A stretch of 64,000 nucleotides of DNA from an uncultured Geomonas sp. (GTDB lineage Bacteria > Desulfobacterota > Desulfuromonadia > Geobacterales > Geobacteraceae): contig CAZFMI010000017.1 in assembly GCA_964519915.1 (NCBI GenBank), positions 1,415 through 65,414 of the forward strand, given 5' to 3'. Shown here in pieces: positions 2,658 through 55,925 of this stretch. The stretch's first letter is position 1; every line of letters begins with the position of its first letter. Both the position numbers and the translations under genes were made by a program. The notes beneath the pieces were generated by a model that saw only the letters and a list, made by a program, of their open reading frames with translations, did no database searches and was not told the DNA's origin.

Positions 2658-3494
2658 TCATTTCCGGTAGAGAGGGTTGCCCCCCCTCACCTCGACGACG
2701 GGTCCCCCCTCCAGCAGTTCCAGCGTACCGGAGTCCCCCTCGTACTCGTTCTCGCCCACGGCCCAGGCGTAGAATTTCTGGGAGTCGGTCAGCACAGGCC
2801 TGTCAGGGATACCGTAGACCCTGTTCTGCATCCCCTCGTCGTACAGCCCGACGCAGCCGTGGGAGGCGGGCTTACCCGGGAGGTCCCTGGCGTGGATCCA
2901 GTAGGCGATGTTGTCGGAACCGATGTGGAAGCGCATGGCGTTGTCCATCGGGTACTGCGCCGAGCCGTCCTCGGTCTGGTAGAGCGAGGAGGTGTGGTTG
3001 CGGTCCCTGGCGTCGATGCGGTACACGCCGACCGGGGTCTCGTGCCCCTTGGAGCCCGTTGCGGCAGGAGCGGAAAAACGGAGCTTGCCGAACTCGTAGG
3101 CGCCCATCCACTGCTCCGTCACGTCGATGAGGATGTACTTCTCGTGTCTTTTGGCGGCTTCGTACTCGGCCGGAAGCGGCGTGTACAGCTTGGCGGCCGC
3201 CAAGTCTAGCGGGACCTTGATGGTCATCCCGGGATAGACGTGACGGCGGTCGATCCTGTTGAAGCGGGCGACCACGGGCCACTCCTTGCCGAACAGGGAC
3301 TCGAGGGTCTGCTCCGGCTTTATGAAGTGGGCGCGCCAGGGGACGTTGGCAAGGCTTGGATACTCGACGCGGGAAAGATCTTCCTTGGCCGGGTCGTTGG
3401 GATTCGCGGCGGGTTCCGAGGTAGCGGTCGGGTTATAGACAACGATGGAGAAAAGGACGGCCAGAACCATGAAAAACAACAACTTACGAACCAT
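2658..3494 (-). CDS. L,D-transpeptidase (YkuD domain) with N-terminal signal anchor
   Basis: Catalytic motif HIGSDNIAYWIHARDLPGKPASHGCVGL. Start moved to MVRKLLFFMVLAV (ATG 3494), which has GGGAG upstream. Confidence 0.85.
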   Translation of the reverse strand: MVRKLLFFMVLAVLFSIVVYNPTATSEPAANPNDPAKEDLSRVEYPSLANVPWRAHFIKPEQTLESLFGKEWPVVARFNRIDRRHVYPGMTIKVPLDLAAAKLYTPLPAEYEAAKRHEKYILIDVTEQWMGAYEFGKLRFSAPAATGSKGHETPVGVYRIDARDRNHTSSLYQTEDGSAQYPMDNAMRFHIGSDNIAYWIHARDLPGKPASHGCVGLYDEGMQNRVYGIPDRPVLTDSQKFYAWAVGENEYEGDSGTLELLEGGPVVEVRGGNPLYRK

Positions 3495-3575
3495 TGTACC
3501 AACTCCCAACCAAGAAACGACGAATGGGGCCAATGCCCCATTTCACGCTCTAATTAACATCTTTACGTTCCAGGG

Positions 3576-4520
3576 TCAAGAAAAAGCGCGTGCAGCCATC
3601 ACCTCTTCCACCGCCGAGTAGGGATCGGTGCTCCTGGTGCGCATCCCGTCGAGGATCTGCTGATACTTGCCGTTCTCCTTGATGCTTCCGAAAACGGTCT
3701 CGAACAGCTCCTCGCGCAGGGTGTCGGCGAAGATCTTCGCGTTTCTCTCCTCGATCAGGCGCTGCAGGGCCCCGGACTCCCGGAGGTAGGTGCGGTGCGC
3801 ATCGAACTCCTCCACCACGTCGTCTATCCCGACTCCCCTGCTCCCTTCCGTCTTCAAGACATGCGGCTGCCATCCTCCCGGTTCCGGGTGCTTCATCTCG
3901 AGCATGGCGCCCAGTTCCCGCGCCGTCCGATCCGCCCCTTCCCGGTCAGCCTTGTTCACCACGAACACATCGCCGATCTCCAGGATGCCCGCCTTGATCG
4001 CCTGGATGTCGTCGCCAAGGCCGGGGACCATGACCACCACCGTGGTATGCGCCGTGCTGACGATATCCACCTCGTCCTGGCCGACCCCCACCGTCTCTAT
4101 CACGATCACATCCATCCCCATGGCGTCCATCACGTTCACCACATCCATGGTCGAACGTGACAACCCCCCCAGGCAGCCGCGAGTGGCGAGGCTTCGGATG
4201 AACACGCCTGAGTCGTCCGCATGGCGGTTCATCCGGATGCGGTCCCCGAGGATCGCCCCGCCGGAAAACGGGCTGGTCGGATCGATCGCCACCACCCCCA
4301 CCAGGAGGTCCTTCTTGCGGTAAGCCGCCACGATCTGGTCCACCAGCGTCGACTTGCCCGCGCCGGGAGGGCCGGTGATGCCGATGATGTAAGCGTTACC
4401 CGTGTGCGGGTAGAGCGTCTTGAGTTCCTCGATCGCGCTTTTGAAGCGATCATCGATATCGCGCATCAGTCGCGCAGCGGCGCGCACGTCACCATCAAGC
4501 ACACGTTCGGCAAGGCTCAT
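3576..4520 (-). CDS. meaB: Methylmalonyl-CoA mutase-associated GTPase MeaB/ArgK
   Basis: P-loop ITGPPGAGKSTLVD, VIETVGVGQ and VVNKADREGA give the G3E GTPase pattern of MeaB. Confidence 0.9.
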   Translation of the reverse strand: MSLAERVLDGDVRAAARLMRDIDDRFKSAIEELKTLYPHTGNAYIIGITGPPGAGKSTLVDQIVAAYRKKDLLVGVVAIDPTSPFSGGAILGDRIRMNRHADDSGVFIRSLATRGCLGGLSRSTMDVVNVMDAMGMDVIVIETVGVGQDEVDIVSTAHTTVVVMVPGLGDDIQAIKAGILEIGDVFVVNKADREGADRTARELGAMLEMKHPEPGGWQPHVLKTEGSRGVGIDDVVEEFDAHRTYLRESGALQRLIEERNAKIFADTLREELFETVFGSIKENGKYQQILDGMRTRSTDPYSAVEEVMAARAFS

Positions 4521-4571: not shown

Positions 4572-4641
4572 TGTTCTATGTTCTATGTTCTATGTTCTAT
4601 GTTCTATGTTCTATGTTCTATGTTCTATGTTTTATGTTCTT
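4572..4641. repeat. Heptanucleotide microsatellite (TGTTCTA): 8 perfect copies plus 2 variant copies
   Basis: Direct reading gives tgttcta x8 (4572-4627), then tgtttta and tgttctt. It lies in the 282 bp spacer between the B12-binding-domain gene and meaB. A related inverted dimer cgtagaacgtagaa sits at 4764-4777. Confidence 0.95.
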
Positions 4642-6239: not shown

Positions 6240-6251
6240 TCCGGGACACAT

Positions 6252-6326
6252 GGGCGATTAGCTCAGCGGGAGAGCACTGCCTTCACACGGCAGGGGTCAC
6301 TGGTTCGAACCCAGTATCGCCCACCA
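6252..6326 (+). tRNA. tRNA-Val (anticodon CAC), copy 1, at the left island junction
   Basis: Cloverleaf read by hand. Acceptor GGGCGAT/ATCGCCC. D arm GCTC-AGCGGGA-GAGC. Anticodon arm CTGCC-TTCACAC-GGCAG. Variable loop GGGTC. T arm ACTGG-TTCGAAC-CCAGT. Discriminator A, and CCA is encoded. Confidence 0.95.
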
Positions 6327-6384
6327 TGCAAATCTTAAGCTGCAATTTCAGATAGTTAGCTAGTCTTAGTGCTTTTGCTCCTTC

Positions 6385-6399
6385 TTTTGCCACACAAAA
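6385..6399. repeat. TTTTGCCACACAAAA motif (left-end copy)
   Basis: This 15 bp imperfect palindrome lies just upstream of the integrase RBS. It recurs at 14587-14599 (partial) and 14600-14614 (exact). Confidence 0.8.
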
Positions 6400-6411: not shown

Positions 6412-7697
6412 ATGGCTAACTTTCTTCGTTTTAGGAGGCGGTATTACCACATCCGCCTAAGAATCCCCACCGATCTCCGCCCCACGTTCCCCGAACCTGA
6501 AATCCTTAAATCTCTTCACACAAAGGACCGAAAGACGGCCTCTATTTCGGCCTCTCGTCTTCATTCCAACATACTCGAAGTCTTCGCCCTGACACGCACA
6601 GGTTTTATTTCACCGGAGCAAGCAAGAAGCAAACTGGACTCTCTTCTCGGCCGAAAGGTGTCCGAGACACCTCCGCAACCAATGACTCTTCCGCCTCCAA
6701 AAGTTGAACCTCTCCCGGCACCGTCCCTAGCCGCGGTCATCACAGAGTACACCAAAGACCGCAAATCGGCGTGGACATCTAAAACCCTCCTTGAATATGG
6801 CAGTTATTTCCGGCTGATTCAGGACGTTGTCGGCAAAAAGACCGCCGCTGACATATCCCGCGATGATGTTAGACAGCTACGGGATACCCTAAGCAAACTT
6901 CCTGCAAACCTTTACAAGAAATACCCTGGCAAGACCATTGCCGACGTTCTCAACGTTGAAAACTTGATCCCCATGAGCACGACCACTGTTAACAAACTCC
7001 TTACCATCTTCGGAAGTCTAATGAGGCACTGCATCAAGGAAGGGTACCGGAAGGATAACCCTACCGAAGGACTAAGGGTCAAGCAACTGAGGAGAGCAGA
7101 GGAAGAAAGGCTTACAGTAGGTCGGACTTGAGCAGGTTGATCGCTGCCCTCCCGTCTCCAGCTACAAAGCCCGAAAGGTACTGGGTGCCGCTAATTGGCC
7201 TATATTCAGGGATGAGATTGGGAGAGATTTGCGGCCTTCATGTAGCGGATATCAAACAGGTCGATGGCATTTGGTGTTTTGATGTCAATGAAGACGGAGA
7301 AAAGCGCCTGAAGACTCTCGCCAGCACTCGGATTGTGCCACTACATCCTGAATTGATTCACAGAGGTTTGATAGAGGTGGTTGAATCAGCAAAATCCCTG
7401 GGAAACGAGAGGCTTTGGCCGAATCTTATCCGAAGAGAAATCGATGGTTATTGTCATGCCTTGGGGAACTGGTACGGACGTTTTAACCGGCTACACATAA
7501 CCCAAGACCCTCTTAAGAGCTTCCACAGCTTAAGGCATACCTTTGCCGATGGCCTAAAACAACTAGGCGAACAAGAGGTGATGATTGCCGAGCTTATGGG
7601 GCACTCAAACGCCTCAATCACAACAGGCCGCTACGGGAAACGTTATAAGCCTGAGGTTCTGTTAGAGGCATTAAGGAAGCTGTCGTTTGATCTGTAG
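6412..7697 (+). pseudogene. int: Tyrosine recombinase / phage-type integrase, split by a frameshift near 7105-7112
   Basis: ORF 6412..7131 is the N-terminal/SAM-like part. ORF 7128..7697 is the catalytic domain (GMRLGEICGL, HSLRHTFA, LMGHS...TTGRYGKRY). The second frame is already open from 7077 and reads ...KAYSRSDLSRLIAALP. A 1 nt indel in gaagaaagg would join the two parts. Confidence 0.85.
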
Positions 7698-8544: not shown

Positions 8545-10008
8545 TTATAGGTCCATATTCTTACTTAGTTGTAACCATTCCGTATACCTTTTATGGTATT
8601 CACCAGATTCATGTATCCACTCTTCTTCATACTCCTCCTCAGATTGGGGAACATCTTCAGAGTTAATCTCACTCCTCAGAGTCTGAATATCAAGCTCATA
8701 AGCAGTTAGATCTGCTTTACAGCCTATTGTTGTACCAATTTGGGTATTTACCTCCGAAGCCATAACCTCTAGCAAATCTTTCTTGTACTTACGTTGCACA
8801 ATAAAACTGTCATGTATCCCAAGTGCTACTATACCTCGTCGGCCCAAGGAAAGCATGATTCCTTCGGCTATTTTTGAATCAATATACTGAAGCTTAATAC
8901 CGAATCCTGATAAAATATATTTATTGATAGCACAATGTTTATTTTTGAAAGCTAATATTACCGATTCAACAGAAACATTAGCGAATAAGTCTTTGTAACC
9001 TTTTTCCATAATCATACTATTGGCAGCTTTAACAGCTGAATTCATATCTTTAGTATTTAACAAGATGTTGAAAATCCGCTTTAGAGGCTTTCTGGCGTTA
9101 TCTGGTAAGTCACACACACTGTAAACGTCATCCACAGGAACGGGTAAACCTTCAAGTATATACAGAATATTTGCGTGATATCCCGTAAAATCTATTTCAA
9201 TTGTGGTTTCGTTGTCGATGGTTATGTAGGGCCTGTACCTACTAGGGACAGATTGCCACCAGCCGTTGTAAAATCTCCCTCCATCAGCGAATGACGAGTT
9301 ATTGAAAATTCGCTTCATCTTTATCCTGCTATAGTCAATAACCTCAGGGTGGTTCTCGTGGTCTAGTCGCTGTTTTATTCTTGCCCTTTCATTGAATTCT
9401 TTGATTTCTTTATCTGAGATGCGTAACCCAAGGAAATGCTGTTGATATAGAAAGTTTATAAATTTTAGATTTTGGCGCATTTCAGTTGTCGTAGCAGTTT
9501 CAGCGTAGTCTATCAATTTCTTTTCAGCATCCTTTAGGATTATTACCTCTTCATCCTCTGCCCTTTCGATAAAAATAGGAGAGAATTCAAAACGTTCTTC
9601 TAAAAGCGTAATTAGTTTATTGGTTGCTCTGAGTCTAGCATCTCTAAAATGTTTCTGTTTTTTAAAACTGAACCCTTTCACACCTTCAACATAGGCTAGC
9701 TTTTTAAGTGCATCTATAATTTTTATAGTTGAATCGAACTTAATATCGACAGCGTTATACCTTTTTATCAGATTATAACGATTACGATTCCTTGAATAGG
9801 AAGTGTATAGAAGTGGGTTGACACGGAAATTTCTATATATATTAACGATGATTAGCAGCAAGTGCTCGTTATGACGTTCATGCCACCTCTGAAATTCACA
9901 GCTGTCTTTTATCTCTCTGGCTATGTACGCTATGGCATCGTAAAAACGTGCGGTGCAAGCTGAAACATTTGTATCAAGCGGGATAGAATAGTCATAATTT
10001 CGGGGCAT
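8545..10008 (-). CDS. 487 aa island protein with family-A polymerase / T7-RNAP-like palm motifs
   Basis: ADGGRFYNGWWQSVPSR (243-257) compares with TGRLSSxxPNLQNIPxR. EIDFTGYHANILY (D273) compares with DYSQIELRIMA. RKPLKRIFNILLN (R306, K310) compares with RRSAKAINFGLIY. GIHDSFIV (H399, D400) compares with VHDE / IHDSFG. The gene is AT-rich. Confidence 0.75.
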   Translation of the reverse strand: MPRNYDYSIPLDTNVSACTARFYDAIAYIAREIKDSCEFQRWHERHNEHLLLIIVNIYRNFRVNPLLYTSYSRNRNRYNLIKRYNAVDIKFDSTIKIIDALKKLAYVEGVKGFSFKKQKHFRDARLRATNKLITLLEERFEFSPIFIERAEDEEVIILKDAEKKLIDYAETATTTEMRQNLKFINFLYQQHFLGLRISDKEIKEFNERARIKQRLDHENHPEVIDYSRIKMKRIFNNSSFADGGRFYNGWWQSVPSRYRPYITIDNETTIEIDFTGYHANILYILEGLPVPVDDVYSVCDLPDNARKPLKRIFNILLNTKDMNSAVKAANSMIMEKGYKDLFANVSVESVILAFKNKHCAINKYILSGFGIKLQYIDSKIAEGIMLSLGRRGIVALGIHDSFIVQRKYKKDLLEVMASEVNTQIGTTIGCKADLTAYELDIQTLRSEINSEDVPQSEEEYEEEWIHESGEYHKRYTEWLQLSKNMDL

Positions 10009-10159
10009 GTGCGTGTCCTTGTGAAAGCGGAAAATTTACAGGAACATTTTCAGAAGAAGTGAATGTGGGAGAGCTTGAGGTGGGGCTGCTGCGGCGTGTG
10101 GCCGCCCTTTATTAGATGGGCGCCGCCACCTCCTGTAACGGATATACAACTAACTTCTC

Positions 10160-10177
10160 ACTTCCGATATCGGAAGT
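10160..10177. promoter_or_regulatory. 18 bp perfect palindrome ACTTCCGATATCGGAAGT (candidate protein-binding site)
   Basis: Read directly, about 150 bp upstream of the 487 aa gene. Related TTCC..GGAA inverted repeats occur at 10333-10345 and 10349-10368. Confidence 0.4.
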
Positions 10178-10456
10178 TGCGCCCATACGGAATTACCCTT
10201 GACGCTGGCCCAGCATGCGTAATATTGCAGCACCTCTTAGGAGGTATGCTTTTTCGGACAAGTCGGAATGATTAGCAACACCTAGACGATCTTGTATTTA
10301 CTTTGGACATGCCCGTAAAAAATCTGCAAGGCATTCCATCGGAATTTGTTCCGAGGGGTGTCTCGGAAGGTTCAAAAATTGAAAAACAGCCTATATCTGG
10401 CCTAAGCAGGGCAAAATACTAGCAATAATTTTGTTCTTAACATGACACCTCCCCCT

Positions 10457-11029
10457 CTAAGCCGTCCTTAGATACTGGTAAAGGGTTTCCCTGCTTATCC
10501 CCATATCGCGTGCTATGCTGGCCTTTTTCTCGCCTGCGGCGACTCTTGCCTTGATCGTCGCAACATGGTCTTCGGTGACGCTACGTTTCCTACCCTCGTA
10601 CTTCCCCTTGGCCTTAGCTATAGCAATCCCTTCCTTCTGGCGCTCTCTAAGCAATGCCCTTTCGAATTCGGCGAAGCTACCCATGATACTCAAAAGGAGA
10701 TTTGCCATTGGGCTGTCATCACCTGTAAAGGTGAGTCCTTCCTTTAAAAATTGAATTTTTATGCCTCTGCCAGTCAAGTCCTTTACGATTCGGCGGAGAT
10801 CGTCAAGGTTACGCGCTAACCGATCCATGGAATGGACGACGGTAGTATCACCTTGCCTCACGAATTTCAGCATGGCCTCTAGTTGAGGGCGTTTAGCATC
10901 CTTCCCGCTGCACTTGTCTGCAAATACCTTGTCTAGCTCAAGCCCCTCTAACTGCCTATCCGTTTTCTGATCTATTGAGCTAACGCGAACATAGCCAACG
11001 AGTTGCCCCTTCATGCTACCCTCCTCCAA
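10457..11029 (-). CDS. Serine recombinase (resolvase/invertase family)
   Basis: LVGYVRVSSIDQKTDRQ (catalytic Ser), VVHSMDRLARN, LRERQKEGIAIAKAKGKYEGRKR and the C-terminal HTH ASIARDMGISRETLYQYL. Confidence 0.9.
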   Translation of the reverse strand: MEEGSMKGQLVGYVRVSSIDQKTDRQLEGLELDKVFADKCSGKDAKRPQLEAMLKFVRQGDTTVVHSMDRLARNLDDLRRIVKDLTGRGIKIQFLKEGLTFTGDDSPMANLLLSIMGSFAEFERALLRERQKEGIAIAKAKGKYEGRKRSVTEDHVATIKARVAAGEKKASIARDMGISRETLYQYLRTA

Positions 11030-11277
11030 ACAGAAATAGTGTCAGCTTAGGTTCTATAACATATCGTTGGTGTTGTCAACTAACAACTGAATCAACCCTA
11101 TTCTGACACAGTCGGGTAAACTAGCTGACGTCAGGCTGGGGTATACCCTACCCCGACAAAAAAAAACAAGGCAAATAAAAGGGTTGCAGAGTTAGGAAAA
11201 ATATTTTAAAAACACTCAAGCTTCCTGTCGCCACACACTATCAAATCAGCAGCAGATGTAATTCTCTTGAGGGAACC

Positions 11278-12087
11278 ATGGCGATTACAGATGTTGAGTT
11301 TATGAAAACAAAGGACGGAAAGGTGGCTCTGTGTATAATCCATGACCTTTCCGACGAACTAAAACTGTTGATTCGAAAGGATTTGTCAACGGTTTGCCAC
11401 GGGGCCGCGAAAGTGGCTTCAGGCAACAAAATATATTCCTACAAATCGACCTTAAAAGCCTTCTTATCGCGCTACGAAACAAAAACCGAAAAAACTAAAA
11501 CGGGTATGATTGGTGAGCTTTTGTGTCACATCACTCTATATCATTTTTACACAAATCTTAAGCCTGCCTCTCCTTTTTTCAATATGGAGGAAGGAAGTAT
11601 AAAGAAAGGTTTTGACCTCATTGCTATAGAAAAAGGTGGCAAAGGCTTTTACTTTACTGAAGTAAAATCTGGTAAAGTTGGTAAGCTTGACAAAGATAAA
11701 AAAATTCATGCTCTCATAGATTTAGCCAAGACGGATCTTGAAGACAGAATTCCGAACAGTGATTCGACATTATGGTACTCAGCGATTAACAATGTCGAGT
11801 TATCCCTTGAGTCAGGTAAACCTGAAAAAACTATCCTCATAAACTGTCTCAGCGAATTTTTTGAAGCTGCGGAATCTGGAACGGATAAAACGGGTGATGC
11901 TCGTGTAATACTGGTTCCTGTTTTGTTTGAATCTACCACCAACACTCTCGACCTTAGCACTCTGATTTCAAAGAGCAGTAACATACAGAGTAATAAGACC
12001 TTTTGTGATTGCATCGTCTTTGCAATTCAGAAATCTACCTTAGAAAAAGTTGAAGAGTTTTTAAAGATAGAGTCCACACTGCCATGA
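11278..12087 (+). CDS. hamA: PD-(D/E)xK-like nuclease-fold protein, HamA (DUF1837)-type candidate
   Basis: 269 aa. E80 (GMIGELL), D113 (GFDLIAIE) and E128-x-K130 (YFTEVKSGK) each follow a hydrophobic strand. The stop overlaps the ATG of the downstream helicase (ATGA). Confidence 0.7.
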   Translation: MAITDVEFMKTKDGKVALCIIHDLSDELKLLIRKDLSTVCHGAAKVASGNKIYSYKSTLKAFLSRYETKTEKTKTGMIGELLCHITLYHFYTNLKPASPFFNMEEGSIKKGFDLIAIEKGGKGFYFTEVKSGKVGKLDKDKKIHALIDLAKTDLEDRIPNSDSTLWYSAINNVELSLESGKPEKTILINCLSEFFEAAESGTDKTGDARVILVPVLFESTTNTLDLSTLISKSSNIQSNKTFCDCIVFAIQKSTLEKVEEFLKIESTLP

Positions 12088-14528
12088 AAACACCACTTAC
12101 ATTAAAAACAATTAGAGCGACTAACATTGATGCGATTATTCAACATCTGAATCTTAAAGATTTGAATAGCGGGCAATGTATAGCTATATTGAAGATATGC
12201 TTGTTATTCTTAAACAGCAACAACGATGAAATAAAGGAATTTGGCTATCGTATTTTACTAAAGCTTTGCAATAAAACCCGCAATTACATACCTCTTTATG
12301 ATGTTGCAACAAACCTAGGTTACATTCCTATAGCCAACATGTTGAAACGAGGGCAGTACATAGCCGTAACTGATTCTTTTATACACACTTTAATGGATGG
12401 TTACCGAGAAAGATTTAGACAGGATGACAATTATCAAACTGAAAATCAAAAAGAACTTTTCGACTCATTTTCAGATTTATCTGAGCAAACAGTTGCGGTG
12501 GTAGCCCCTACATCTTATGGCAAATCACAATTAATAGAATTCACCGTTCAAAGCCATCCTAGTAGCAATATAGGTATCGTAGTTCCATCTAAAGCACTGA
12601 TTTCTCAAACAAGAAGAAGGGTTTTAGAGGGATTGCCGCTTGAAAAGAGACGACAGGTTATTGTTCACCATGATATGAACTTTAGCCAAGACAAGCCTAT
12701 TGTCGCGATAGTAACCCAAGAACGTCTTTTGAGGATGTTTCAAAAATATCCTTCCTTACAATTTGATATATTATTTATAGATGAGGCTCACAACCTTTTA
12801 AGTGGTGACAAGCGCTCTAGGCTTTTGGCAAGTGCGATAATTATTGCTAAATCTAGATGCAAAAGTATTGCGATCAAATATCTTACTCCCTTTTTAGTTA
12901 CTTCAGATAGCCTAAATATAATCGCAGACACGCCCAATATCAAAGAAATCAAAATAAACGAAAAGCTAAAAACCGAAGATTACTACATTTGCGATTTCTC
13001 TTCTGGTTGCCAACTGCGATTCTATGATCAATTTTTGAATAAATTCTTCGACATTCCCGAAGCCGTGTATAGCGACGATACACAGCTTTTATTCGACAAG
13101 AAAAAGCAAAAGAATGTTGTTTATCTTAACAAACCCAAGGACATAGAGGAATTTGCACAGGTTCTCTGTGAAAAGCTCCCTACCCGAAACTCCAAAAAAA
13201 TCGAGAAACTTTGCGAGGAAATCGCTGATTATGTGCACCCGAGCTACAGAATACTTGATTGTTTGAGAAAAGGGCTCGCATATCATCATGGATCAATTCC
13301 AGATAGCGTTAGAACCTATATTGAAAATGCTTTTAGACATAATCCTTCGATATCGTGGATAGTTACTAGCTCCACATTGCTCGAAGGCGTTAATATACCT
13401 GCCGATGTCTTATTTATTCTAGACCCTCGGCGTGGCCCAAGAAATTTAAAACCCTCTGAGTTCAGAAACTTAGTTGGCAGAATAAATAGGTTCAGCGAGA
13501 TATTCGATCCAGAAAATGGTGTTCCACAACTTTTAATACCCGATATCTATCTTATTTCTTCAAATTACACTAGATCAAAAGCTAACATTGAAAAATTTAT
13601 CCAACATGTTGCAAAAATTGATTTGACGATTGAAGATGAGATAGAAAACCCCCTTTTAGCAGGTTCAGGGGATTCTGAAGACACATTATCTGAACGTGAT
13701 GAGGATTTAACCTTCATAGAAAATATAGAGCCTAACGCGAGCTGGCGCGAAGAGGCAAAGCTTGCAAACAGCGAGGTAGGAAGGCTATGTTTTATTCATA
13801 ATATTTATGAGCTAGACATTTTGAGGTATGAACGTCTATTAGCTATCCAAGTTGACGAATTAATTGAAGAAAATAGAATTGTAAAATCTTCAACAGACCT
13901 AATGGATATTATAAATGAGTTATTTATCTCAAAAATAGATGATGACAGGAAAAATGAAAATCTTCTCCGCCTTCGCAACAGCTCGGCTCGTGGCTTTTAT
14001 TCAATGTTTTTCGATTGGAGAATTAACCAAGTCAATTATCAACGGATGATTGGGAGTTTTGTTCGTTACTGGAAGGCCATTCTAAAAAATGAAGATGATG
14101 CCCTAGTTTATGCGGGAAGGTGGGGGAATGTTGCAAGAAGTGGTCACATAGCTAATTATATTGATCTAAAAGCTTTATCAGAATATGAGATGATAAACTT
14201 GGCAATAGTTAGAATAAAAGAGGAACAAGATTTTGTGGACAATAACCTTGTTAAGTTCGTTGAAGTAGTCAATGACTTGAATCTTTTAGATCATGATATC
14301 TACAATAAGGTTAAATATGGCACTACCGACAAATTACAAATTGGATTAATAAGAAGTGGTCTATCACACATAGCAGCCAATGTACTTGCGTCAAAATATA
14401 TTAAATATGTTACGCTGGATTCTAACGGCTCCATTCTTATTTCAAATGATATCAAACAGGCCTTCAGGCTGAAAAACGAAAAGGAGCTTATCAGCAGTGA
14501 GGTTCTATGGTCAGGTTTACTCGGATAA
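12084..14528 (+). CDS. hamB: DEAH-box SF2 helicase, HamB-type candidate
   Basis: 814 aa. Walker A VVAPTSYGKSQ, DEAH in LFIDEAHNL, GLAYHHGSIP, TSSTLLEGVNIPA and VGRINR (Ski2/Hel308-like motifs). The C-terminal region is long and uncharacterised. Confidence 0.8.
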   Translation: MKTPLTLKTIRATNIDAIIQHLNLKDLNSGQCIAILKICLLFLNSNNDEIKEFGYRILLKLCNKTRNYIPLYDVATNLGYIPIANMLKRGQYIAVTDSFIHTLMDGYRERFRQDDNYQTENQKELFDSFSDLSEQTVAVVAPTSYGKSQLIEFTVQSHPSSNIGIVVPSKALISQTRRRVLEGLPLEKRRQVIVHHDMNFSQDKPIVAIVTQERLLRMFQKYPSLQFDILFIDEAHNLLSGDKRSRLLASAIIIAKSRCKSIAIKYLTPFLVTSDSLNIIADTPNIKEIKINEKLKTEDYYICDFSSGCQLRFYDQFLNKFFDIPEAVYSDDTQLLFDKKKQKNVVYLNKPKDIEEFAQVLCEKLPTRNSKKIEKLCEEIADYVHPSYRILDCLRKGLAYHHGSIPDSVRTYIENAFRHNPSISWIVTSSTLLEGVNIPADVLFILDPRRGPRNLKPSEFRNLVGRINRFSEIFDPENGVPQLLIPDIYLISSNYTRSKANIEKFIQHVAKIDLTIEDEIENPLLAGSGDSEDTLSERDEDLTFIENIEPNASWREEAKLANSEVGRLCFIHNIYELDILRYERLLAIQVDELIEENRIVKSSTDLMDIINELFISKIDDDRKNENLLRLRNSSARGFYSMFFDWRINQVNYQRMIGSFVRYWKAILKNEDDALVYAGRWGNVARSGHIANYIDLKALSEYEMINLAIVRIKEEQDFVDNNLVKFVEVVNDLNLLDHDIYNKVKYGTTDKLQIGLIRSGLSHIAANVLASKYIKYVTLDSNGSILISNDIKQAFRLKNEKELISSEVLWSGLLG

Positions 14529-14586
14529 GGAAGCGGGTTTCTCAATTTGACAGCCCTTATCTTTCCTGTTGAGGTTGCCTGACGGA

Positions 14587-14614
14587 TTTTTGCCACACAT
14601 TTTGCCACACAAAA
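14587..14614. repeat. Tandem TTTTGCCACACA(AAA) motifs at the right island end
   Basis: tttttgccacaca followed by ttttgccacacaaaa. The second is identical to the motif at 6385-6399. Confidence 0.8.
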
Positions 14615-14672
14615 CTTAGGCAGAAGTTCGGAGCACAATCAAGCCTTCCAAGATTAAACTACTGATTTTGCT

Positions 14673-14747
14673 GGGCGATTAGCTCAGCGGGAGAGCACTG
14701 CCTTCACACGGCAGGGGTCACTGGTTCGAACCCAGTATCGCCCACCA
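14673..14747 (+). tRNA. tRNA-Val (anticodon CAC), copy 2, at the right island junction
   Basis: 75/75 nt identical to 6252-6326. It has no recognisable native promoter upstream, but the native-looking terminator follows it. Confidence 0.95.
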
Positions 14748-14757
14748 TGCAAACAGC

Positions 14758-14790
14758 AAAGGCCGAGTCGAAAGACTCGGCCTTTTTCGT
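14758..14790 (+). terminator. Rho-independent terminator downstream of tRNA-Val copy 2
   Basis: Stem AAAGGCCGAGTC / GACTCGGCCTTT with loop GAAA, followed by a T-run. Confidence 0.75.
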
Positions 14791-14871
14791 TGCTGCCATT
14801 TTATGCAGGCCTATCTGGCGGAAGACCCTCGCTGAGCAGCTGAGCGAACCTTACTCCGGGAACCGCTGCTA

Positions 14872-40600: not shown

Positions 40601-43600
40601 CCCCCCTGAGGCTCACCCTGTCGCCTATCAGCCAACCGGCGTCGAGACCGAAGAGGGTGTTGTCCTTCATCGCCTGCTCCTCCACCACCGCCGTCCCCCC
40701 CAGGGAGAGCCCCTTCGCCGGGCGGAGCTCCGCGCGGCCGCCGTAGACGTAGCGCTTCTCGCCCGGGCCTCCCCCCTGGTAGGTCACCACGATGGTGACC
40801 GGGTTCAGGTTCTGGTCCAGCGAGGGGACCGGCTCCTTGAAAAGGATGGTCCCCGCCTGGTAATCGATGGAGTAGTCGGCGTAGCGGACCCTCTCGGAGA
40901 CGGAGACGACCCGCTCCGTGTGGTAGCGGTCCCGCACCTCGATGCGCACCCGCTCGCTGTTCTCGAAGACCGGCCTTCTGGACAGGAAGTAATGCCCGGA
41001 GCTGCCGTTGCCGGGGATGTCGTCCCGGGTCACCGCCTCCTCCGTCCTGCTTTCGAACCCCTTGAGGGTCGCCTTTTCACGGTTCAGCTCGAATTTGGCG
41101 CCGTGCAGGGCCCGGTCGTAGCGGGAGAACTCGTTTTCGGAGAGATCGGTGCGGAAGTCACCGGCCATGAGGTAGGAGCGCCCCGTTTCCAGCTTGAGGT
41201 ACAGCTTCCCCCGGGATTCCGCCTGGTATCCGATGTCGGAGGCGTCGCCGTAGACCGGGTAGTACTTCTCGGGGTCTATCGCCTGGAACACGCCGTCTCG
41301 GCGCTCCTTGTCGGAGTCGTAGGCGGCAGTCAGGAGGTACTTGCCGAGGATGCTGCCGCGGGTGAAGAAAGCGAGCCGCTCCTCTTGGAAGATACCCTCA
41401 TCGAAGCGGTCATCCCCGTCGATCCTCTCCAGGTTGCCGCTTACCGCCTTGGCCCCGAGGGTCACGGAGCCGAGACCGACCAGGATCCAGTCGCGCAGCT
41501 CGGGGCTGAAGTAGAGGTCGGCCATGCCGCCGCTGCCGTTTTCGTCGCTGACCAGGATGCGGTCCGGGCCGGTGCTGCGGGTCGAGCGGAGCTGGAAGAC
41601 GGCGAGGCCGTCGGTGACGCGGAGCTGGTGCCCGGGGAGTTCCGGGTCCTGGTCGGGTTCCACCAGGGCCCCCTTGCCGGTGGTGACGGTGACGTTTCGG
41701 GAACCGGGGACCCTATGGCCGGCAGCATCCAGCAACTCGACCTTGAAGGGGACCACGCTCTTGCCGTCCGCCGGCAGGTCGACCCGCTCGGGGGAGACCC
41801 GAAGCCGCGGCACGGCGGCAGGGGTTGCCAGGACCGCGTCAGGCGGCAGCGGCACCACCAGCAGCTCAAGCGGCGCCAACGGTGGAAAGGCAGTCCGACC
41901 TGTCTGACCTGTCTGACCTGTCTGACCTGTCTGACCTGTCTGACCTGTCTGACCTGTCTGACCTGTCTGACCTGTCTGACTTGTCTGACCTGGCAGACCA
42001 ACCGGGACTGGCGGTATGCCCGGGCTTGTCGCTCTTGCCTCGGGCTTTAGCGCCAGGGCGAAATCGCCGCGGGCGGGGCCGCCGAAGGGGACGGTGATGA
42101 ACTGCGACCACCCCACCCCGGCAAAGGCGGTGTTGTACGGCACTGCAACAAAACGCGCATCCAGCGTGGAACGGTCTATCTTCACTACGTGGTCTCCGGC
42201 GGAAAGACCGGTGAAGCTGTAGTTCCCCTGCGCGTCTGTAAACGCGAACGAGCCGTCCTCCAGGTAAATCCTCACCCCGGGCTCACCGGACTCGCCCGGG
42301 TCGGGGACGCCGTTGCCGTTTTTATCCTCAAAGATCCTGCCGAGGATGATCGCCTTGTCTCCCAAAATGGAAGGCCGCACCTTGACGGCTGCGGTCGCCG
42401 GCGAGGAGAGTGTGCTGTTCCCCGCCAGGGTCAGCCCCGACGCCTGCGCCCAGTTGATGCTGGTGCCGACCGGCACCTCGCCGGATAGCACCGCACGGTA
42501 GCTCAGCTGCCTCACGGCTCCCGGCTCCATGCTCCCCAATGTCCAGCTCAACTGCTGCGACCCACCGGCCGGGTCGGGGACGGAACTCCCATCGATACGA
42601 CTCGACCCCTTCAGGTAGCGAAACCCGCGGGGCAGACGGTCGGCCAGCGTCACCTGATTCAGGACAGTGGCTGCGAGGTTCTCCACACGCACGCTGTACG
42701 ACACTACGTCACCCGCCTCGGCTACGCTGCTCCCCGCCACCTTGGTCACCTGCAACTCCCGGGCAAGGACCGTGTTGAGCGTGCTGTTGGTCAGCGTGGG
42801 CGTCGCGCTCTGTGCGCTGGAGACACCGGCGGTGTTGATGATCGAGCCGTTGCCGGGGGCATCGTCACGGACCCTGGCCCGGAAGGTGACCTCCCCGCTG
42901 AAGCCGGGGGGAAGGGTCGCTATGTCGACCATCAGGGTGCGGGTCGCGGCATCGAACCGCACGCTCCCATCGACCCCGGCCGGGAGCGCTGCGCTTCCCT
43001 GCTGGTATTCGAGCAGGGGATCCAGAGGATCGATCAGCCGCACCCCGGCCACCGGGGAGGCTCCGCTGTTGGAGAGCTCGATGCTGTAGGAAACAACGGC
43101 ACCCGGGAGGAGGGCGCCTTCCGGCGAGACCGCCTTGATCGCCGCGAGCCCACCGGGCGCCGGCACCACGAGCTGGTTGCTGATGCCTGTGCTTCTGGCC
43201 GGAATGAGCTGCGAGGTGGCGGTCACGTTGATGAGGACGACCCGCCCCTCGCTCCCGGGAGGCGGGGTGGCCCGGAGCACGAGGTCGATGGAAGCGCCTG
43301 GCGCTACGGGACCGAGCACCTGCACTCCATCTGCATCGGCCGGCAGCGGTGCCTCCCCATCGGCCGTGTAAAAACGAAACAGCGGTGCCGGCCCGGTATC
43401 GGGGAGTGCAGCCTCGGCAAGGGCCGCCCTCAGCCGGAAGCTGTCCGCAAAGTTTCCCCTGTTGGTCAAGGTGTGGTGGAAATCGACCGGGACGCCGGCC
43501 TGGGTGGTGGCGTTTCGCGGGGGGACAAGGTCCGGGTCTGCCACGTCCCTGATGCTCACCCGGGTCTCGTTGGACCGGGCTTCGCGGAAGACGGGGGTGG

Positions 43601-54245: not shown

Positions 54246-55730
54246 ATGAAGATCGACATCTCCGGCAGCACCCCGCTTGAACACGCCACCCCTGCCCTGG
54301 TCATCGGTTGCTTCGAGGACGAAAGGGACGAGCTGTTCCAGGGGTGCGACGCCGCGCTCCAGGGGTGCCTGGGGCGCCTCGCCGACAGCCGCGAGTTTAC
54401 CGGCAGGCCCTCCACCTCCCGACTCCTGCATACCCTGGGCAAGCTCCCCGCCGAGCGGCTCCTGCTGGTGGGTCTCGGCAAGAGGGGGGATCTCGGCTAC
54501 GAGCGGCTGCGTCAGGCGGCGGGCAACGCTTCGCAGGCGCTGAGGTCGGCGCGCGTTTCCTCCTTCAGCAGCGCGCTGCACCTCTCTTGCACCCTCCCCA
54601 AGTCCCTGGAGGCGGTTGCTGTCGGGGCGCTTATGGGAAGCTACAGCTTCGACCTTTACAAGACCAAGGAGAAGGAACTCCGCTTCGCCTTCCAGGCGAT
54701 GACCCTGCTCGTTGCGTCGGAAGCGGACATCGAGAAGGAGCGCGCGCGCGCCGAGCGCTGCCGGCGCCTCTGGGAGGGGATCCGGCTGGCCCGCGACCTG
54801 GTCTCGCATCCGGGGAACGTGGTCACCCCCGGTTACCTGGCCCAGGCGGCGCGGGAGCTGGCCGGGCGCAACGGGCTCGAGTGCCGGGTGTACGAGAGCG
54901 ATGAGCTGGAGCAGCTGGGGATGAACGCGCTTTTGGGGGTGGGCAGAGGGGCGGAGGAGCCGCCGCGCCTGATCGTGCTCCAGTACCATGGCGGCGCCGC
55001 CAAGGGGCGGCCGGTGGTCCTGGTCGGCAAGGGGATCACCTTCGACTCCGGCGGGATCTCCATCAAGCCCGGTCCCGGCATGGAGGAGATGAAGACGGAC
55101 ATGGCAGGAAGCGCCGCGGTGCTGGGGACCATGGAGGCGGCGGCGCTCCTGCAACTGCCGCTCAACCTGATCGGGATCATCCCCACCGCCGAGAACATGC
55201 CGGACGGCAAGGCCTTCAAGCCGGGGGACGTCCTCACCTCGCTCTCCGGTACCACCATTGAGATCACCAACACCGATGCGGAGGGGCGCCTCATCCTATG
55301 CGACGCCCTGCACTTCGCCCAAAGGTACAAGCCGGCGGCGCTGATCGACCTGGCCACCCTGACCGGCGCCTGCGTCATCGCACTGGGGCACGAGGCGAGC
55401 GGGCTGTTGGGGAACGACCAGCGCCTGGTCGACGCACTGAAACGGGCCGGCGAGGAGTCCGGCGAGCGGGTCTGGCAGTTGCCGCTTTGGGAAGAGTATG
55501 GCGAGGGAATGAAGAGCGACATCGCCGACCTGAAGAACGCGGGTAGCAGGGACGGCGGTAGCATCAAGGCGGCCTGGTTCCTGAAGCAGTTCGTAGGGGA
55601 TTCGCGCTGGGCCCACCTGGACATCGCCGGCACAGCCTGGAGCGACAAGGCCCGCCCTTACTCCCCGAAGGGAGCGACCGGCGTGGGCGTGAGGTTGCTT
55701 ATCGAGTACCTGGAGCAGAGGCAACAGTAA
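54246..55730 (+). CDS. pepA: Leucyl aminopeptidase (M17)
   Basis: VGKGITFDSGGISIKP and the NTDAEGRLILCDAL signature. Confidence 0.92.
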   Translation: MKIDISGSTPLEHATPALVIGCFEDERDELFQGCDAALQGCLGRLADSREFTGRPSTSRLLHTLGKLPAERLLLVGLGKRGDLGYERLRQAAGNASQALRSARVSSFSSALHLSCTLPKSLEAVAVGALMGSYSFDLYKTKEKELRFAFQAMTLLVASEADIEKERARAERCRRLWEGIRLARDLVSHPGNVVTPGYLAQAARELAGRNGLECRVYESDELEQLGMNALLGVGRGAEEPPRLIVLQYHGGAAKGRPVVLVGKGITFDSGGISIKPGPGMEEMKTDMAGSAAVLGTMEAAALLQLPLNLIGIIPTAENMPDGKAFKPGDVLTSLSGTTIEITNTDAEGRLILCDALHFAQRYKPAALIDLATLTGACVIALGHEASGLLGNDQRLVDALKRAGEESGERVWQLPLWEEYGEGMKSDIADLKNAGSRDGGSIKAAWFLKQFVGDSRWAHLDIAGTAWSDKARPYSPKGATGVGVRLLIEYLEQRQQ

Positions 55731-55925
55731 AAACAGGTCAAGGTTAAAAAACAGGTCAAGGTTAAAAAACAGGTTGAGGTTGAGGTTGAGGTTGAGAAAA
55801 ACAGATTAAGGTCGAGATTGAGAAAAACAGGCCAAGGTTGAGGTTGAGGTCGAGAAATCAGGTCGAGACTGGGGTCGAGAAACGCCTCTCCTTAACCTTA
55901 ACCTTAACCTCAACCTGTTTTTTAT
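55731..55925. repeat. Composite repeat block: AAAAACAGG-headed units with GGTYRA hexamer runs, closed by an inverted arm
   Basis: The block reads aaaaacaggtcaaggtt x2, then aaaaaacaggttgaggttgaggttgaggttgag, then further degenerate units. The terminal ccttaaccttaaccttaacctcaacctgtttttt is complementary to the forward units. Confidence 0.9.

What the first reader, a model, noticed from the sequence alone, without database searches (positions are those of the whole stretch)
11278..14528. Coupled nuclease-fold protein plus large DEAH helicase on the island: Hachiman-type (HamA/HamB) defence candidate
Seen in sequence: two + strand ORFs of 269 aa and 814 aa overlap as ATGA (12084-12087), so they are very likely co-translated. 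ORF1 carries E80 (GMIGELL), D113 (KGFDLIAIE) and E128-V-K130 (YFTEVKSGK). Each follows a hydrophobic strand-like run, which is the spacing and context of a PD-(D/E)xK restriction-endonuclease-fold active site. ORF2 has a complete SF2 motif set: Walker A APTSYGKS (141-148), DEAH (233-236), GLAYHHGSIP, TSSTLLEGVNIPA and VGRINR (Ski2/Hel308-like). These are followed by about 340 aa with no motif I can name. Established knowledge: a DUF1837 nuclease-fold protein followed by a large SF2 helicase is the architecture of the Hachiman anti-phage system. Inference: this is a Hachiman-type, helicase-licensed nuclease cassette carried as cargo of the tRNA-Val island. The assignment of ORF1 to DUF1837 rests on size, position and motif pattern, not on an alignment. 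It is the best candidate in this window for a self-contained accessory biological system.
Basis: partly seen in the sequence, partly recalled or inferred. Interest (0 to 1): 0.85.

Follow-up and report, generated by a model that had tools for sequence, protein, structure and literature searches.

The report
Ordinary two-gene Hachiman anti-phage system

Summary

ORF1 is HamA (DUF1837). It passes the Pfam HamA cut-off (26.1 against 25 bits) and has 211 homologues, nearly all flagged PF08878. E80, D113, E128 and K130 are invariant across 37 of them. Its AlphaFold model significantly matches only the solved E. coli HamA chains.

ORF2 is HamB: PADLOC HamB1 E=2e-78, and solved HamB is the best Foldseek match. 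The "unnamed" C-terminal 340 aa aligns with the C-terminal domains of Hel308 and PolQ helicases.

In 72 of 75 genomes with a HamA relative, a full-length HamB follows directly. The other island genes never accompany the pair.

The carrier is an 8.4-kb, 36% GC island between perfect 82-nt tRNA-Val repeats. A related metagenome contig shows the empty site.

This is a type I (I-A) Hachiman system. It lacks the OB domain of the ECOR31 HamB, the Cap4 and trypsin fusions, and HamC. The mechanism, a helicase sensing DNA ends or damage and licensing non-specific DNA degradation, is inferred from published homologues and was not tested here.

Interest is low: a new member of a known kind.

The parts
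11278..12087 (+). hamA: 269-aa stand-alone DUF1837 (PD-(D/E)xK-type) effector nuclease; predicted catalytic residues E80, D113, E128, K130
   Evidence: ORF. Pfam PF08878 HamA 26.1 bits against GA 25. 211 homologues, nearly all PF08878. Invariant E80/D113/E128/K130 in A2. AF2 pLDDT 90.8 with alpha(71-90)-beta(94-96)-beta(114-118)-beta(124-132)-alpha topology. Foldseek significant hits only 8vxy_A and 8vx9_A HamA.
12084..14528 (+). hamB: 814-aa SF2 Ski2/Hel308-like DEAH helicase (sensor/ATPase). All-helical N-terminal domain about residues 1-110, RecA1 about 115-270, RecA2 about 340-495, mainly helical Hel308-like C-terminal region about 500-814
   Evidence: ORF. PADLOC HamB1 PDLC00190 E=2.2e-78, top 18 PADLOC hits all HamB. 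Pfam DEAD, ResIII, Helicase_C. PDB sequence hits 9wh1_B, 8zue_B, 8vx9_B. AF2 pLDDT 88.8. Foldseek top hit 8vxa_A HamB E=4.5e-20, then full-length PolQ-helicase and Hel308. Motif residues invariant in A3.
12084..12087 (+). ATGA stop/start overlap coupling hamA and hamB translation
   Evidence: Sequence. In 70 of 71 related loci a candidate hamB start lies -35 to +10 nt from the hamA stop, mostly overlapping.
11030..11277 (+). Intergenic region upstream of hamA, divergent from the resolvase gene. Presumed hamAB promoter region, with an imperfect palindrome at 11130-11157 and a GAGG Shine-Dalgarno core at 11269-11272
   Evidence: Sequence, palindrome I12. The promoter scan gave no more sites than shuffles, so the promoter is not mapped.
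6251..6332 (+). Left 82-nt direct repeat (attL): complete tRNA-Val(CAC) gene plus 7 flanking nt
   Evidence: ARAGORN, Rfam, perfect 82-nt repeat D1.
14672..14753 (+). Right 82-nt direct repeat (attR): second identical tRNA-Val(CAC) copy, 144 nt after the hamB stop, followed by a terminator-like hairpin at 14767-14781
   Evidence: Contig L082 shows left flank, one tRNA-Val and right flank contiguous.
6412..7697 (+). Island tyrosine integrase, split into two frames at 7128-7131 (DUF6538 + Phage_int_M | Phage_integrase catalytic domain)
   Evidence: The same split occurs in independent contigs L001-L003.
10457..11029 (-). Serine recombinase (Resolvase + HTH_7), divergent from hamA; part of the island backbone, not of the defence system
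   Evidence: Pfam E=2e-36. It does not co-occur with HamAB in 75 other loci.

Best explanation
The two genes encode a type I (subtype I-A) Hachiman anti-phage system, HamA plus HamB, carried as cargo on an 8.4-kb low-GC island integrated at tRNA-Val.

Shown here:
- Family membership of both proteins.
- Intact catalytic motifs in both.
- Conserved adjacency and stop/start coupling of the two genes.
- Correlated divergence of HamA and HamB.
- Carriage on an island, independent of the island's other genes.

Inferred from published homologues, not tested here:
- HamA and HamB form a heterodimer through the helical N-terminal domain of HamB, which keeps the HamA PD-(D/E)xK nuclease in check.
- When ssDNA, 3' ends or damaged DNA produced during infection enter the HamB helicase channel, ATP binding and hydrolysis and RecA-domain ratcheting activate or release HamA.
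- HamA then degrades phage and host DNA non-specifically, an abortive-infection outcome.
For: - HamA identity: Pfam HamA above its cut-off; 211 homologues, nearly all PF08878, several named 'Hachiman antiphage defense system protein HamA' by NCBI; E80, D113, E128 and K130 invariant in 37 sequences; high-confidence model whose only significant PDB matches are ECOR31 HamA.
- HamB identity: PADLOC HamB1 E=2e-78; PDB sequence hits to three solved HamB proteins; Foldseek top hit HamB-DNA 8vxa_A; all SF2 motifs invariant; an all-helical N-terminal domain of about 110 aa, like the HamA-binding NAH described in PMC12278908.
- Operon: 72 of 75 genome loci have full-length HamB directly downstream; start/stop overlap or a gap of at most 10 nt in 70 of 71; HamA and HamB identities correlate at r=0.80.
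- Cargo status: the integrase, resolvase and orf487 never accompany HamAB elsewhere; GC is 35-40% against about 60%; 82-nt perfect repeats flank the island; an empty site exists in L082.
- Mechanism from the literature: PMC12278908 (E138A/K140A and the helicase mutant abolish defence; activation by 3' ssDNA or DNA damage; host and phage DNA degraded), PMC11914072 (I-A DEC14B E150A/K152A; HamA active only in complex), PMC13064477 (D90, E93, D127, E147, K149 essential).
Against: - No experiment or complex prediction was possible, so heterodimer formation, the trigger and anti-phage activity are all inferred.
- Sequence similarity to the biochemically studied systems is low. HamA is 12-13% identical to ECOR31 HamA in the structural alignment (TM about 0.5), and a HamA family profile finds no PDB chain by sequence.
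- PADLOC HamA models match only weakly and partially (E about 5e-4). NCBIfam has no hit for HamA.
- This HamB (814 aa) lacks the OB/WH* module credited with ssDNA sensing in ECOR31 HamB (1174 aa). Published subtypes differ in their ATPase trigger (3' ssDNA or dsDNA), so the trigger here is uncertain.
- The island integrase is frameshifted, so the island may be decaying, although hamAB is intact.
Confidence: 0.9

Rival explanations
1. A Hachiman remnant that no longer functions: the island is degenerating (frameshifted integrase) and hamAB is carried passively without giving defence in this host.
For: The integrase is split into two frames in the window and in independent contigs. No promoter or terminator signal above background was found for hamAB.
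Against: Both ORFs are full length, with every catalytic and helicase motif intact. Identical HamA occurs on 13 contigs from several metagenomes. The ATGA coupling is intact.
Confidence: 0.06
2. A housekeeping or element-encoded DNA repair/recombination module: a Hel308/PolQ-like helicase with an accessory nuclease processing stalled forks or serving island replication, not immunity.
For: The HamB model aligns over its full length with Hel308, Hjm and the PolQ helicase domain. NCBIfam gives weak Hel308 hits. The island also carries a putative polymerase-like gene.
Against: The NCBIfam Hel308 equivalog score is 38 bits against a cut-off of 1200. The best structural and profile matches are HamB. 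The partner is a HamA-family protein. The pair occurs in 72 unrelated genomes without the island's integrase, resolvase or orf487. It lies on horizontally acquired low-GC DNA.
Confidence: 0.03
3. A Hachiman-like pair whose real effector lies elsewhere (as in trypsin-HamAB-MBL or AbpAB), with the DUF1837 domain acting only as a scaffold.
For: The closest solved structure by sequence to this HamB is 9wh1_B, the HamB of the trypsin-HamAB-MBL system (bioRxiv 10.1101/2025.09.03.673762).
Against: HamA is 269 aa with no extra domain. Its D/ExK residues are invariant, whereas scaffold-type DUF1837 domains lack them (PMC11914072). No MBL, trypsin or Cap4 gene is in the island. hamB ends 144 nt before the island boundary.
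Confidence: 0.02

Closest known systems
Type I-A Hachiman, e.g. E. coli DEC14B HamAB (PMC11914072); type I of PADLOC (HamA1/HamB1)
   Same: Two genes, hamA then hamB. HamA is a stand-alone DUF1837 domain with conserved D...ExK residues. HamB is an SF2 DEAH helicase. There is no HamC. It is found on mobile DNA.
   Different: Sequence is divergent: PADLOC HamA models match only at E about 5e-4 over about 65 residues, and Pfam HamA is just above its cut-off. No functional data exist for this clade member.
E. coli ECOR31 HamAB (PDB 8VX9/8VXA/8VXC/8VXY; PMC12278908; 'type III-A' in PMC13064477)
   Same: Best structural match for both proteins. Same ExK catalytic motif (E138/K140 there, E128/K130 here). 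HamB has a helical N-terminal domain followed by a Ski2/Hel308-like core.
   Different: ECOR31 HamB has 1174 aa, with extra WH* and C-terminal OB-like domains. The HamB here has 814 aa and a mainly helical C-terminus. HamA identity in the structural alignment is only 12-13%, with TM about 0.5.
HamB of the trypsin-HamAB-MBL system (PDB 9WH1; bioRxiv 10.1101/2025.09.03.673762)
   Same: Closest solved HamB by sequence (E=7e-26, aligned over residues 125-589 and again near the C-terminus). Similar size (853 aa).
   Different: That system has a trypsin-like protease fused to HamA and a separate MBL-fold DNase effector. Here HamA is DUF1837 only, with an intact nuclease motif, and there is no MBL gene.
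AbpAB / type I-B Hachiman of E. coli K-12 (PDB 8ZUE; PMC11914072, PMC10732053)
   Same: DUF1837 protein plus SF2 helicase heterodimer. HamB-like helicase (E=3e-15).
   Different: AbpA carries an N-terminal Cap4-type nuclease and a catalytically dead DUF1837 domain. Here there is no fusion, and the DUF1837 domain keeps its active-site residues.
Hel308 / Hjm / PolQ helicase-like domain (Ski2-like DNA helicases)
   Same: Fold match across RecA1, RecA2 and the C-terminal winged-helix, ratchet and helical domains (TM normalised to target 0.55-0.61).
   Different: Not a member: the NCBIfam Hel308 equivalog scores 38 bits against a cut-off of 1200. HamB also has an extra N-terminal helical domain and an obligate HamA partner.

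Membership tests
Hachiman type I (HamAB) | HamA contains a DUF1837 (Pfam PF08878) domain | tested here: met
   Pfam 26.1 bits against gathering score 25, E=9.4e-6. 211 homologues, nearly all pre-annotated PF08878. Foldseek: the only significant PDB matches are HamA chains 8vxy_A and 8vx9_A.
Hachiman type I (HamAB) | HamB is an SF2 (Ski2/Hel308-like) helicase with intact ATPase and helicase motifs | tested here: met
   PADLOC HamB1 E=2.2e-78. Pfam DEAD, ResIII, Helicase_C. Walker A K147, DEAH 233-236 and motif VI R466/R469 invariant. Foldseek top hit HamB 8vxa_A.
Hachiman type I (HamAB) | hamA immediately upstream of hamB on the same strand (operon), conserved across genomes | tested here: met
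   ATGA overlap. 72 of 75 loci have full-length HamB directly downstream. Stop-to-start distance is -35 to +10 nt in 70 of 71.
Hachiman type I (HamAB) | No third gene HamC (DUF3223), which defines type II | tested here: met
   hamB stops at 14528 and the island ends at 14672. No ORF with a Pfam hit lies between. No island ORF hit DUF3223.
Hachiman subtype I-A (PMC11914072) | HamA is DUF1837 only, with no N-terminal fusion, and keeps the PD-(D/E)xK catalytic residues | tested here: met
   269 aa, a single domain. E80, D113, E128 and K130 invariant in 37 homologues. D113 precedes strand 114-118 and E128/K130 lie in strand 124-132 of the model.
Hachiman (all) | HamA and HamB form a heterodimer through the HamB N-terminal helical domain | not testable with these tools
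   Only single-chain prediction is available. The model does show an all-helical N-terminal domain of about 110 aa in HamB, and HamA and HamB identities co-vary at r=0.80. Both fit the feature but are not a test of it.
Hachiman (all) | Confers anti-phage defence / abortive infection that depends on both catalytic sites | not testable with these tools
   Needs plaque assays and mutants. Known only for homologues (PMC12278908, PMC11914072, PMC13064477).
ECOR31-like Hachiman ('III-A', PMC13064477) | HamB carries a C-terminal OB-like barrel (and a WH* insertion), about 1170 aa | tested here: not met
   HamB is 814 aa. Residues 500-814 of the model are mainly helices with only short strands. Foldseek TM normalised to the 8vx9_B target is only 0.35, against 0.55-0.66 for the shorter Hel308, PolQ and 8zue_B.
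Trypsin-HamAB-MBL and AbpAB (I-B) variants | Extra effector domain fused to HamA (trypsin-like protease or Cap4 nuclease), inactive DUF1837 domain, MBL gene for the former | tested here: not met
   HamA has no extra domain. The active-site residues are conserved. No MBL, trypsin or Cap4 gene is in the island.
Hel308 repair helicase (NCBIfam NF040935) | Score above the equivalog cut-off | tested here: not met
   38.2 bits against a cut-off of 1200. There is fold similarity only.

The most novel reading that the evidence does not exclude
The compact clade to which this pair belongs has an HamB of about 814 aa without the OB/WH* ssDNA-sensing module. Its HamB is closest in sequence to the helicase of the trypsin-HamAB-MBL system, yet it is paired with a catalytically intact stand-alone HamA. 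This clade could sense a different DNA cue, or use a different licensing step (for example ATP-binding-dependent inhibition instead of HamA release), from the ECOR31 paradigm. Separately, its carrier could be a small self-replicating satellite-like island, whose 487-aa protein of an unannotated family may be a minimal family-A-type polymerase.
Probability: 0.15. Interest if true: 0.45.

Novelty: new member of a known kind. Interest (0 to 1): 0.2.

Why it matters
It adds one more Hachiman locus, apparently in an environmental host with about 60% GC. The host may be related to Geobacteraceae: an island protein is 78% identical to a Geomonas terrae protein. It also shows a defence cassette as the only evident cargo of a minimal 8.4-kb tRNA island.

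The practical value is modest. The clade is a compact Hachiman form (269 + 814 aa) that would be convenient for biochemistry. Its HamA is matched only weakly by PADLOC 2.0 HamA profiles, so this clade may be under-called by some defence finders. Nothing here changes the understanding of Hachiman.

Tried and rejected
1. Sequence searches of HamA against PDB, both as a single sequence and as a 37-sequence profile, found nothing meaningful (xylose isomerase at E=0.4, All3325 at E=0.1). The link to solved HamA came only from the structure comparison.
2. NCBIfam gave no hit for HamA and only sub-threshold Hel308 hits for HamB.
3. PHROGs gave no HamA hit and only generic helicase hits for HamB.
4. 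The promoter/terminator scan of 10900-14800 found no more sites than shuffled sequence, so no promoter is assigned.
5. Rfam found only the two tRNAs in the whole window.
6. The first empty-site search with longer flanks found nothing. A shorter pattern found L082.
7. I tested whether the resolvase, integrase or orf487 travel with HamAB. There were no hits in 75 loci, so a resolvase-HamAB module was rejected.
8. orf487: a single-sequence and a profile search against PDB and Pfam scans of 31 members gave nothing. The polymerase idea therefore rests only on an invariant-residue pattern and one UniRef name.
9. L035 is the one locus where HamA is not followed by a detectable HamB within 6 kb. It was not resolved.
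Full report
**1. Observation**

The window holds two + strand ORFs: 11278..12087 (269 aa) and 12084..14528 (814 aa). The sequence reads ...CTGCC**ATGA**AAACA... at 12084-12087, so the second ORF's ATG overlaps the first ORF's TGA.
- ORF1: E80, D113, E128-V-K130.
- ORF2: APTSYGKS 141-148, DEAH 233-236, GLAYHHGSIP, TSSTLLEGVNIPA and VGRINR.

A GAGG core lies 5 nt before the ORF1 ATG. ORF2 has no obvious ribosome-binding site of its own, which fits coupling through the overlap. The region has 35-40% GC inside a sequence of about 60% GC.

**2. ORF1 is HamA**

- Pfam gives a single hit, PF08878 HamA (formerly DUF1837): 26.1 bits against a gathering score of 25, E=9.4e-6, residues 27-192.
- PADLOC HamA profiles match only weakly (E about 5e-4, about 65 residues). 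NCBIfam has no hit.
- The large protein database removes the doubt. There are 211 homologues at E<=1e-3, nearly all of 263-290 aa and almost all pre-annotated PF08878. Several are named 'Hachiman antiphage defense system protein HamA' by NCBI.
- In an alignment of 37 of them, down to 36% identity, the invariant columns include G76, M77, G79, E80, H84, F101, N102, E104, E105, K110, D113, E128, K130 and G132.
- The AlphaFold2 model is confident (pLDDT 90.8, pTM 0.89). E80 lies in helix 71-90, D113 lies at the start of strand 114-118, and E128/K130 lie in strand 124-132. This is the alpha-beta-beta-beta arrangement of PD-(D/E)xK nucleases.
- Foldseek against PDB returns only two matches below E=0.01. 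Both are HamA of the E. coli ECOR31 Hachiman complex: 8vxy_A at E=1.1e-4 and 8vx9_A at E=4.6e-3, probability 0.99-1.00, TM about 0.5, 12-13% identity.
- Sequence searches against PDB find nothing, which shows how far this clade is from the solved HamA.

The equivalent residues are experimentally essential in three published systems:
- E138/K140 in ECOR31 (PMC12278908).
- E150/K152 in DEC14B (PMC11914072).
- D90, E93, D127, E147 and K149 in S. thermophilus (PMC13064477).

The correspondence to those residues is by motif pattern and order, not by a residue-level structural superposition, which I could not inspect.

**3. ORF2 is HamB**

- The 18 best PADLOC matches are all HamB models. The best is HamB1 PDLC00190 at E=2.2e-78.
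- Pfam finds DEAD, ResIII and Helicase_C.
- By sequence, the nearest solved chains are all HamB proteins: 9wh1_B (E=7e-26), which is the HamB of the trypsin-HamAB-MBL system according to bioRxiv 10.1101/2025.09.03.673762; 8zue_B (K-12 AbpB/HamB, 3e-15); and 8vx9_B (ECOR31 HamB, 3.5e-10).
- More than 2,300 homologues exist, typically 805-825 aa and aligned end to end. In a 31-sequence alignment all SF2 motif residues are invariant, and so are many C-terminal positions such as W645, W663, W680-G681, N705-I708, E714-Q715 and Y745-G746-T747. The C-terminal 340 aa is therefore a conserved part of the family.
- The AF2 model (pLDDT 88.8) has an all-helical N-terminal domain (about 1-110), two RecA domains and a mainly helical C-terminal region.
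- Foldseek's top hit is HamB-DNA 8vxa_A (E=4.5e-20). Full-length alignments to the PolQ helicase domain, Hel308 and Hjm follow, with TM normalised to target of 0.55-0.61.
- The 'unnamed' C-terminal region therefore aligns with the C-terminal winged-helix, ratchet and helical domains of Hel308/PolQ helicases.
- The helical N-terminal domain matches the description of the HamA-binding 'NAH' domain that is specific to HamB (PMC12278908).
- This HamB is not a Hel308 orthologue: the NCBIfam equivalog scores 38 bits against a cut-off of 1200.

**4. The pair is conserved**

- A genome-wide scan with HamA patterns gave 75 loci across Proteobacteria, Firmicutes, Bacteroidota, Planctomycetota and others.
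- tblastn with the window's HamB finds a full-length homologue immediately downstream on the same strand in 72 of them.
- Two of the three exceptions end at a contig edge. One, L035, is a real and unresolved exception.
- In 70 of 71 analysable loci a candidate hamB start lies -35 to +10 nt from the hamA stop. The commonest values are -8, +1, -4 and -11. I picked the start nearest the stop, so this figure is somewhat favourable.
- HamA and HamB identities to the window proteins correlate (Pearson 0.80, Spearman 0.59, p=6e-8), as expected for co-inherited partners.

**5. Context: a small tRNA-Val island**

- Two identical tRNA-Val(CAC) genes lie at 6252-6326 and 14673-14747. They sit inside perfect 82-nt direct repeats, 6251-6332 and 14672-14753, spaced 8,421 bp apart.
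- Between the repeats lie, in order:
  - a tyrosine integrase split into two frames at 7128-7131;
  - two small ORFs;
  - a 487-aa protein of unknown family;
  - a serine recombinase;
  - hamAB.
- The same arrangement, including the integrase split, recurs on independent sediment and groundwater metagenome contigs.
- Metagenome contig L082 carries the left flank (25 of 27 nt identical), a single tRNA-Val and the right flank with its terminator hairpin, all contiguous. That is an empty site in a relative. The left flank is short because the contig starts there.
- None of the island's backbone genes is found next to HamAB in the other 75 loci. hamAB is therefore cargo and is not functionally tied to them.

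**6. Mechanism**

Shown here are family membership, intact active sites, coupling and cargo status. The rest is inferred from homologues.
- HamA is inactive alone and is held by HamB.
- Entry of ssDNA or 3' ends (ECOR31, I-A), or of DNA more generally (K-12, I-B), triggers the HamB ATPase and ratcheting.
- HamA then degrades DNA non-specifically, clearing both phage and host DNA (abortive infection).
- Sources: PMC12278908, PMC11914072, PMC13064477.

Because this HamB lacks the OB/WH* module of ECOR31 HamB (PMC11914072 and PMC13064477 discuss that module), the exact DNA cue is the least certain step.

**7. Classification and novelty**

- It meets every testable defining feature of Hachiman type I, subtype I-A sensu PMC11914072, the clade that holds 86% of HamA sequences in that study.
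- It does not meet the features of the ECOR31-like OB-containing form, the Cap4-fused AbpAB form, the trypsin/MBL form or type II (HamC).
- It is a new member of a known kind.

I give 0.2.

**8. Side observations**

These are listed separately in the noticed-in-passing entries. The main one is the 487-aa island protein.
- It has no Pfam or PDB link.
- It matches phrog_4756 (unknown function, E=1e-52).
- Its homologues are annotated as hypothetical proteins in Vibrio and Aeromonas phages of 110-145 kb.
- D273, R306, K310, H399 and D400 are among the few invariant residues of its family. Their order and the R-x3-K spacing resemble motifs A, B and C of family-A/T7-type polymerases as I recall them.
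- One UniRef name for a homologue reads 'DNA-directed DNA polymerase family A pa...'.

This is a lead and has not been shown.

Noticed in passing
window 8545-10008 (-): A 487-aa island protein with no Pfam or PDB sequence match. It hits phrog_4756 (unknown function, E=1e-52) and has 'hypothetical' homologues in Vibrio and Aeromonas phages of 110-145 kb and in Geomonas terrae (78% identity). Among the few invariant residues of the family are D273, R306, K310, H399 and D400 (IDFTGYH, RKPLK, IHDSF), a pattern resembling motifs A, B and C of family-A/T7-like polymerases. One UniRef homologue name begins 'DNA-directed DNA polymerase family A pa...'. It could be a small replicase of the island.
   Followed up: partly
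window 6412-7697 (+), junction at 7128-7131: The island's tyrosine integrase is split into two overlapping frames: the DUF6538/Phage_int_M N-terminal part and the Phage_integrase catalytic part. The same split occurs in independent metagenome contigs (L001-L003), so it is not a read error. It is either a fixed pseudogene, meaning an immobilised island, or a frameshift that is read through.
   Followed up: partly
window 6385-6396, 14588-14599, 14600-14611 (+): Three exact copies of TTTTGCCACACA: one just inside the left island end, upstream of the integrase gene, and two in tandem just inside the right end. None of 100 shuffles reached 3 copies. They are candidate integrase arm-type or excision-factor binding sites.
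   Followed up: partly
window 6251-6332 and 14672-14753; locus L082 1-143: The att repeat is unusually long and covers the whole tRNA-Val gene (82 nt, perfect), so the island carries a complete second tRNA copy. Empty-site contig L082 shows two substitutions in the downstream terminator hairpin (GGCCGAG...CTCGGCC to GGCCAAG...CTTGGCC) that keep the stem paired.
   Followed up: yes
window 11130-11157: An imperfect palindrome, GTCAGGCTGGGGTATACCCTACCCCGAC, lies in the divergent intergenic region between the resolvase gene and hamA. It could be a resolvase (res) site or an operator. Not analysed.
   Followed up: no
window 10009-10456: About 450 nt with no convincing ORF lie between orf487 and the resolvase gene. 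GC is higher (about 45-49%) than in the rest of the island. It could hold an origin or a regulatory region. Rfam found nothing at gathering thresholds.
   Followed up: no
locus L035 (Pseudogemmobacter sp. W21_MBD1_M6), HamA at 3443-4195: This is the only genome locus of 75 where a HamA homologue is not followed by a detectable HamB within 6 kb. It could be a disrupted system or an orphan HamA.
   Followed up: no
window 4572-4640; 41893-41992; 55729-55848: Short-period tandem repeats lie outside the finding: TGTTCTA x 9.9 just downstream of the MeaB-like gene, GTCTGACCT x 11.1, and a composite array with periods of 6, 18 and 26 nt. Not examined.
   Followed up: no
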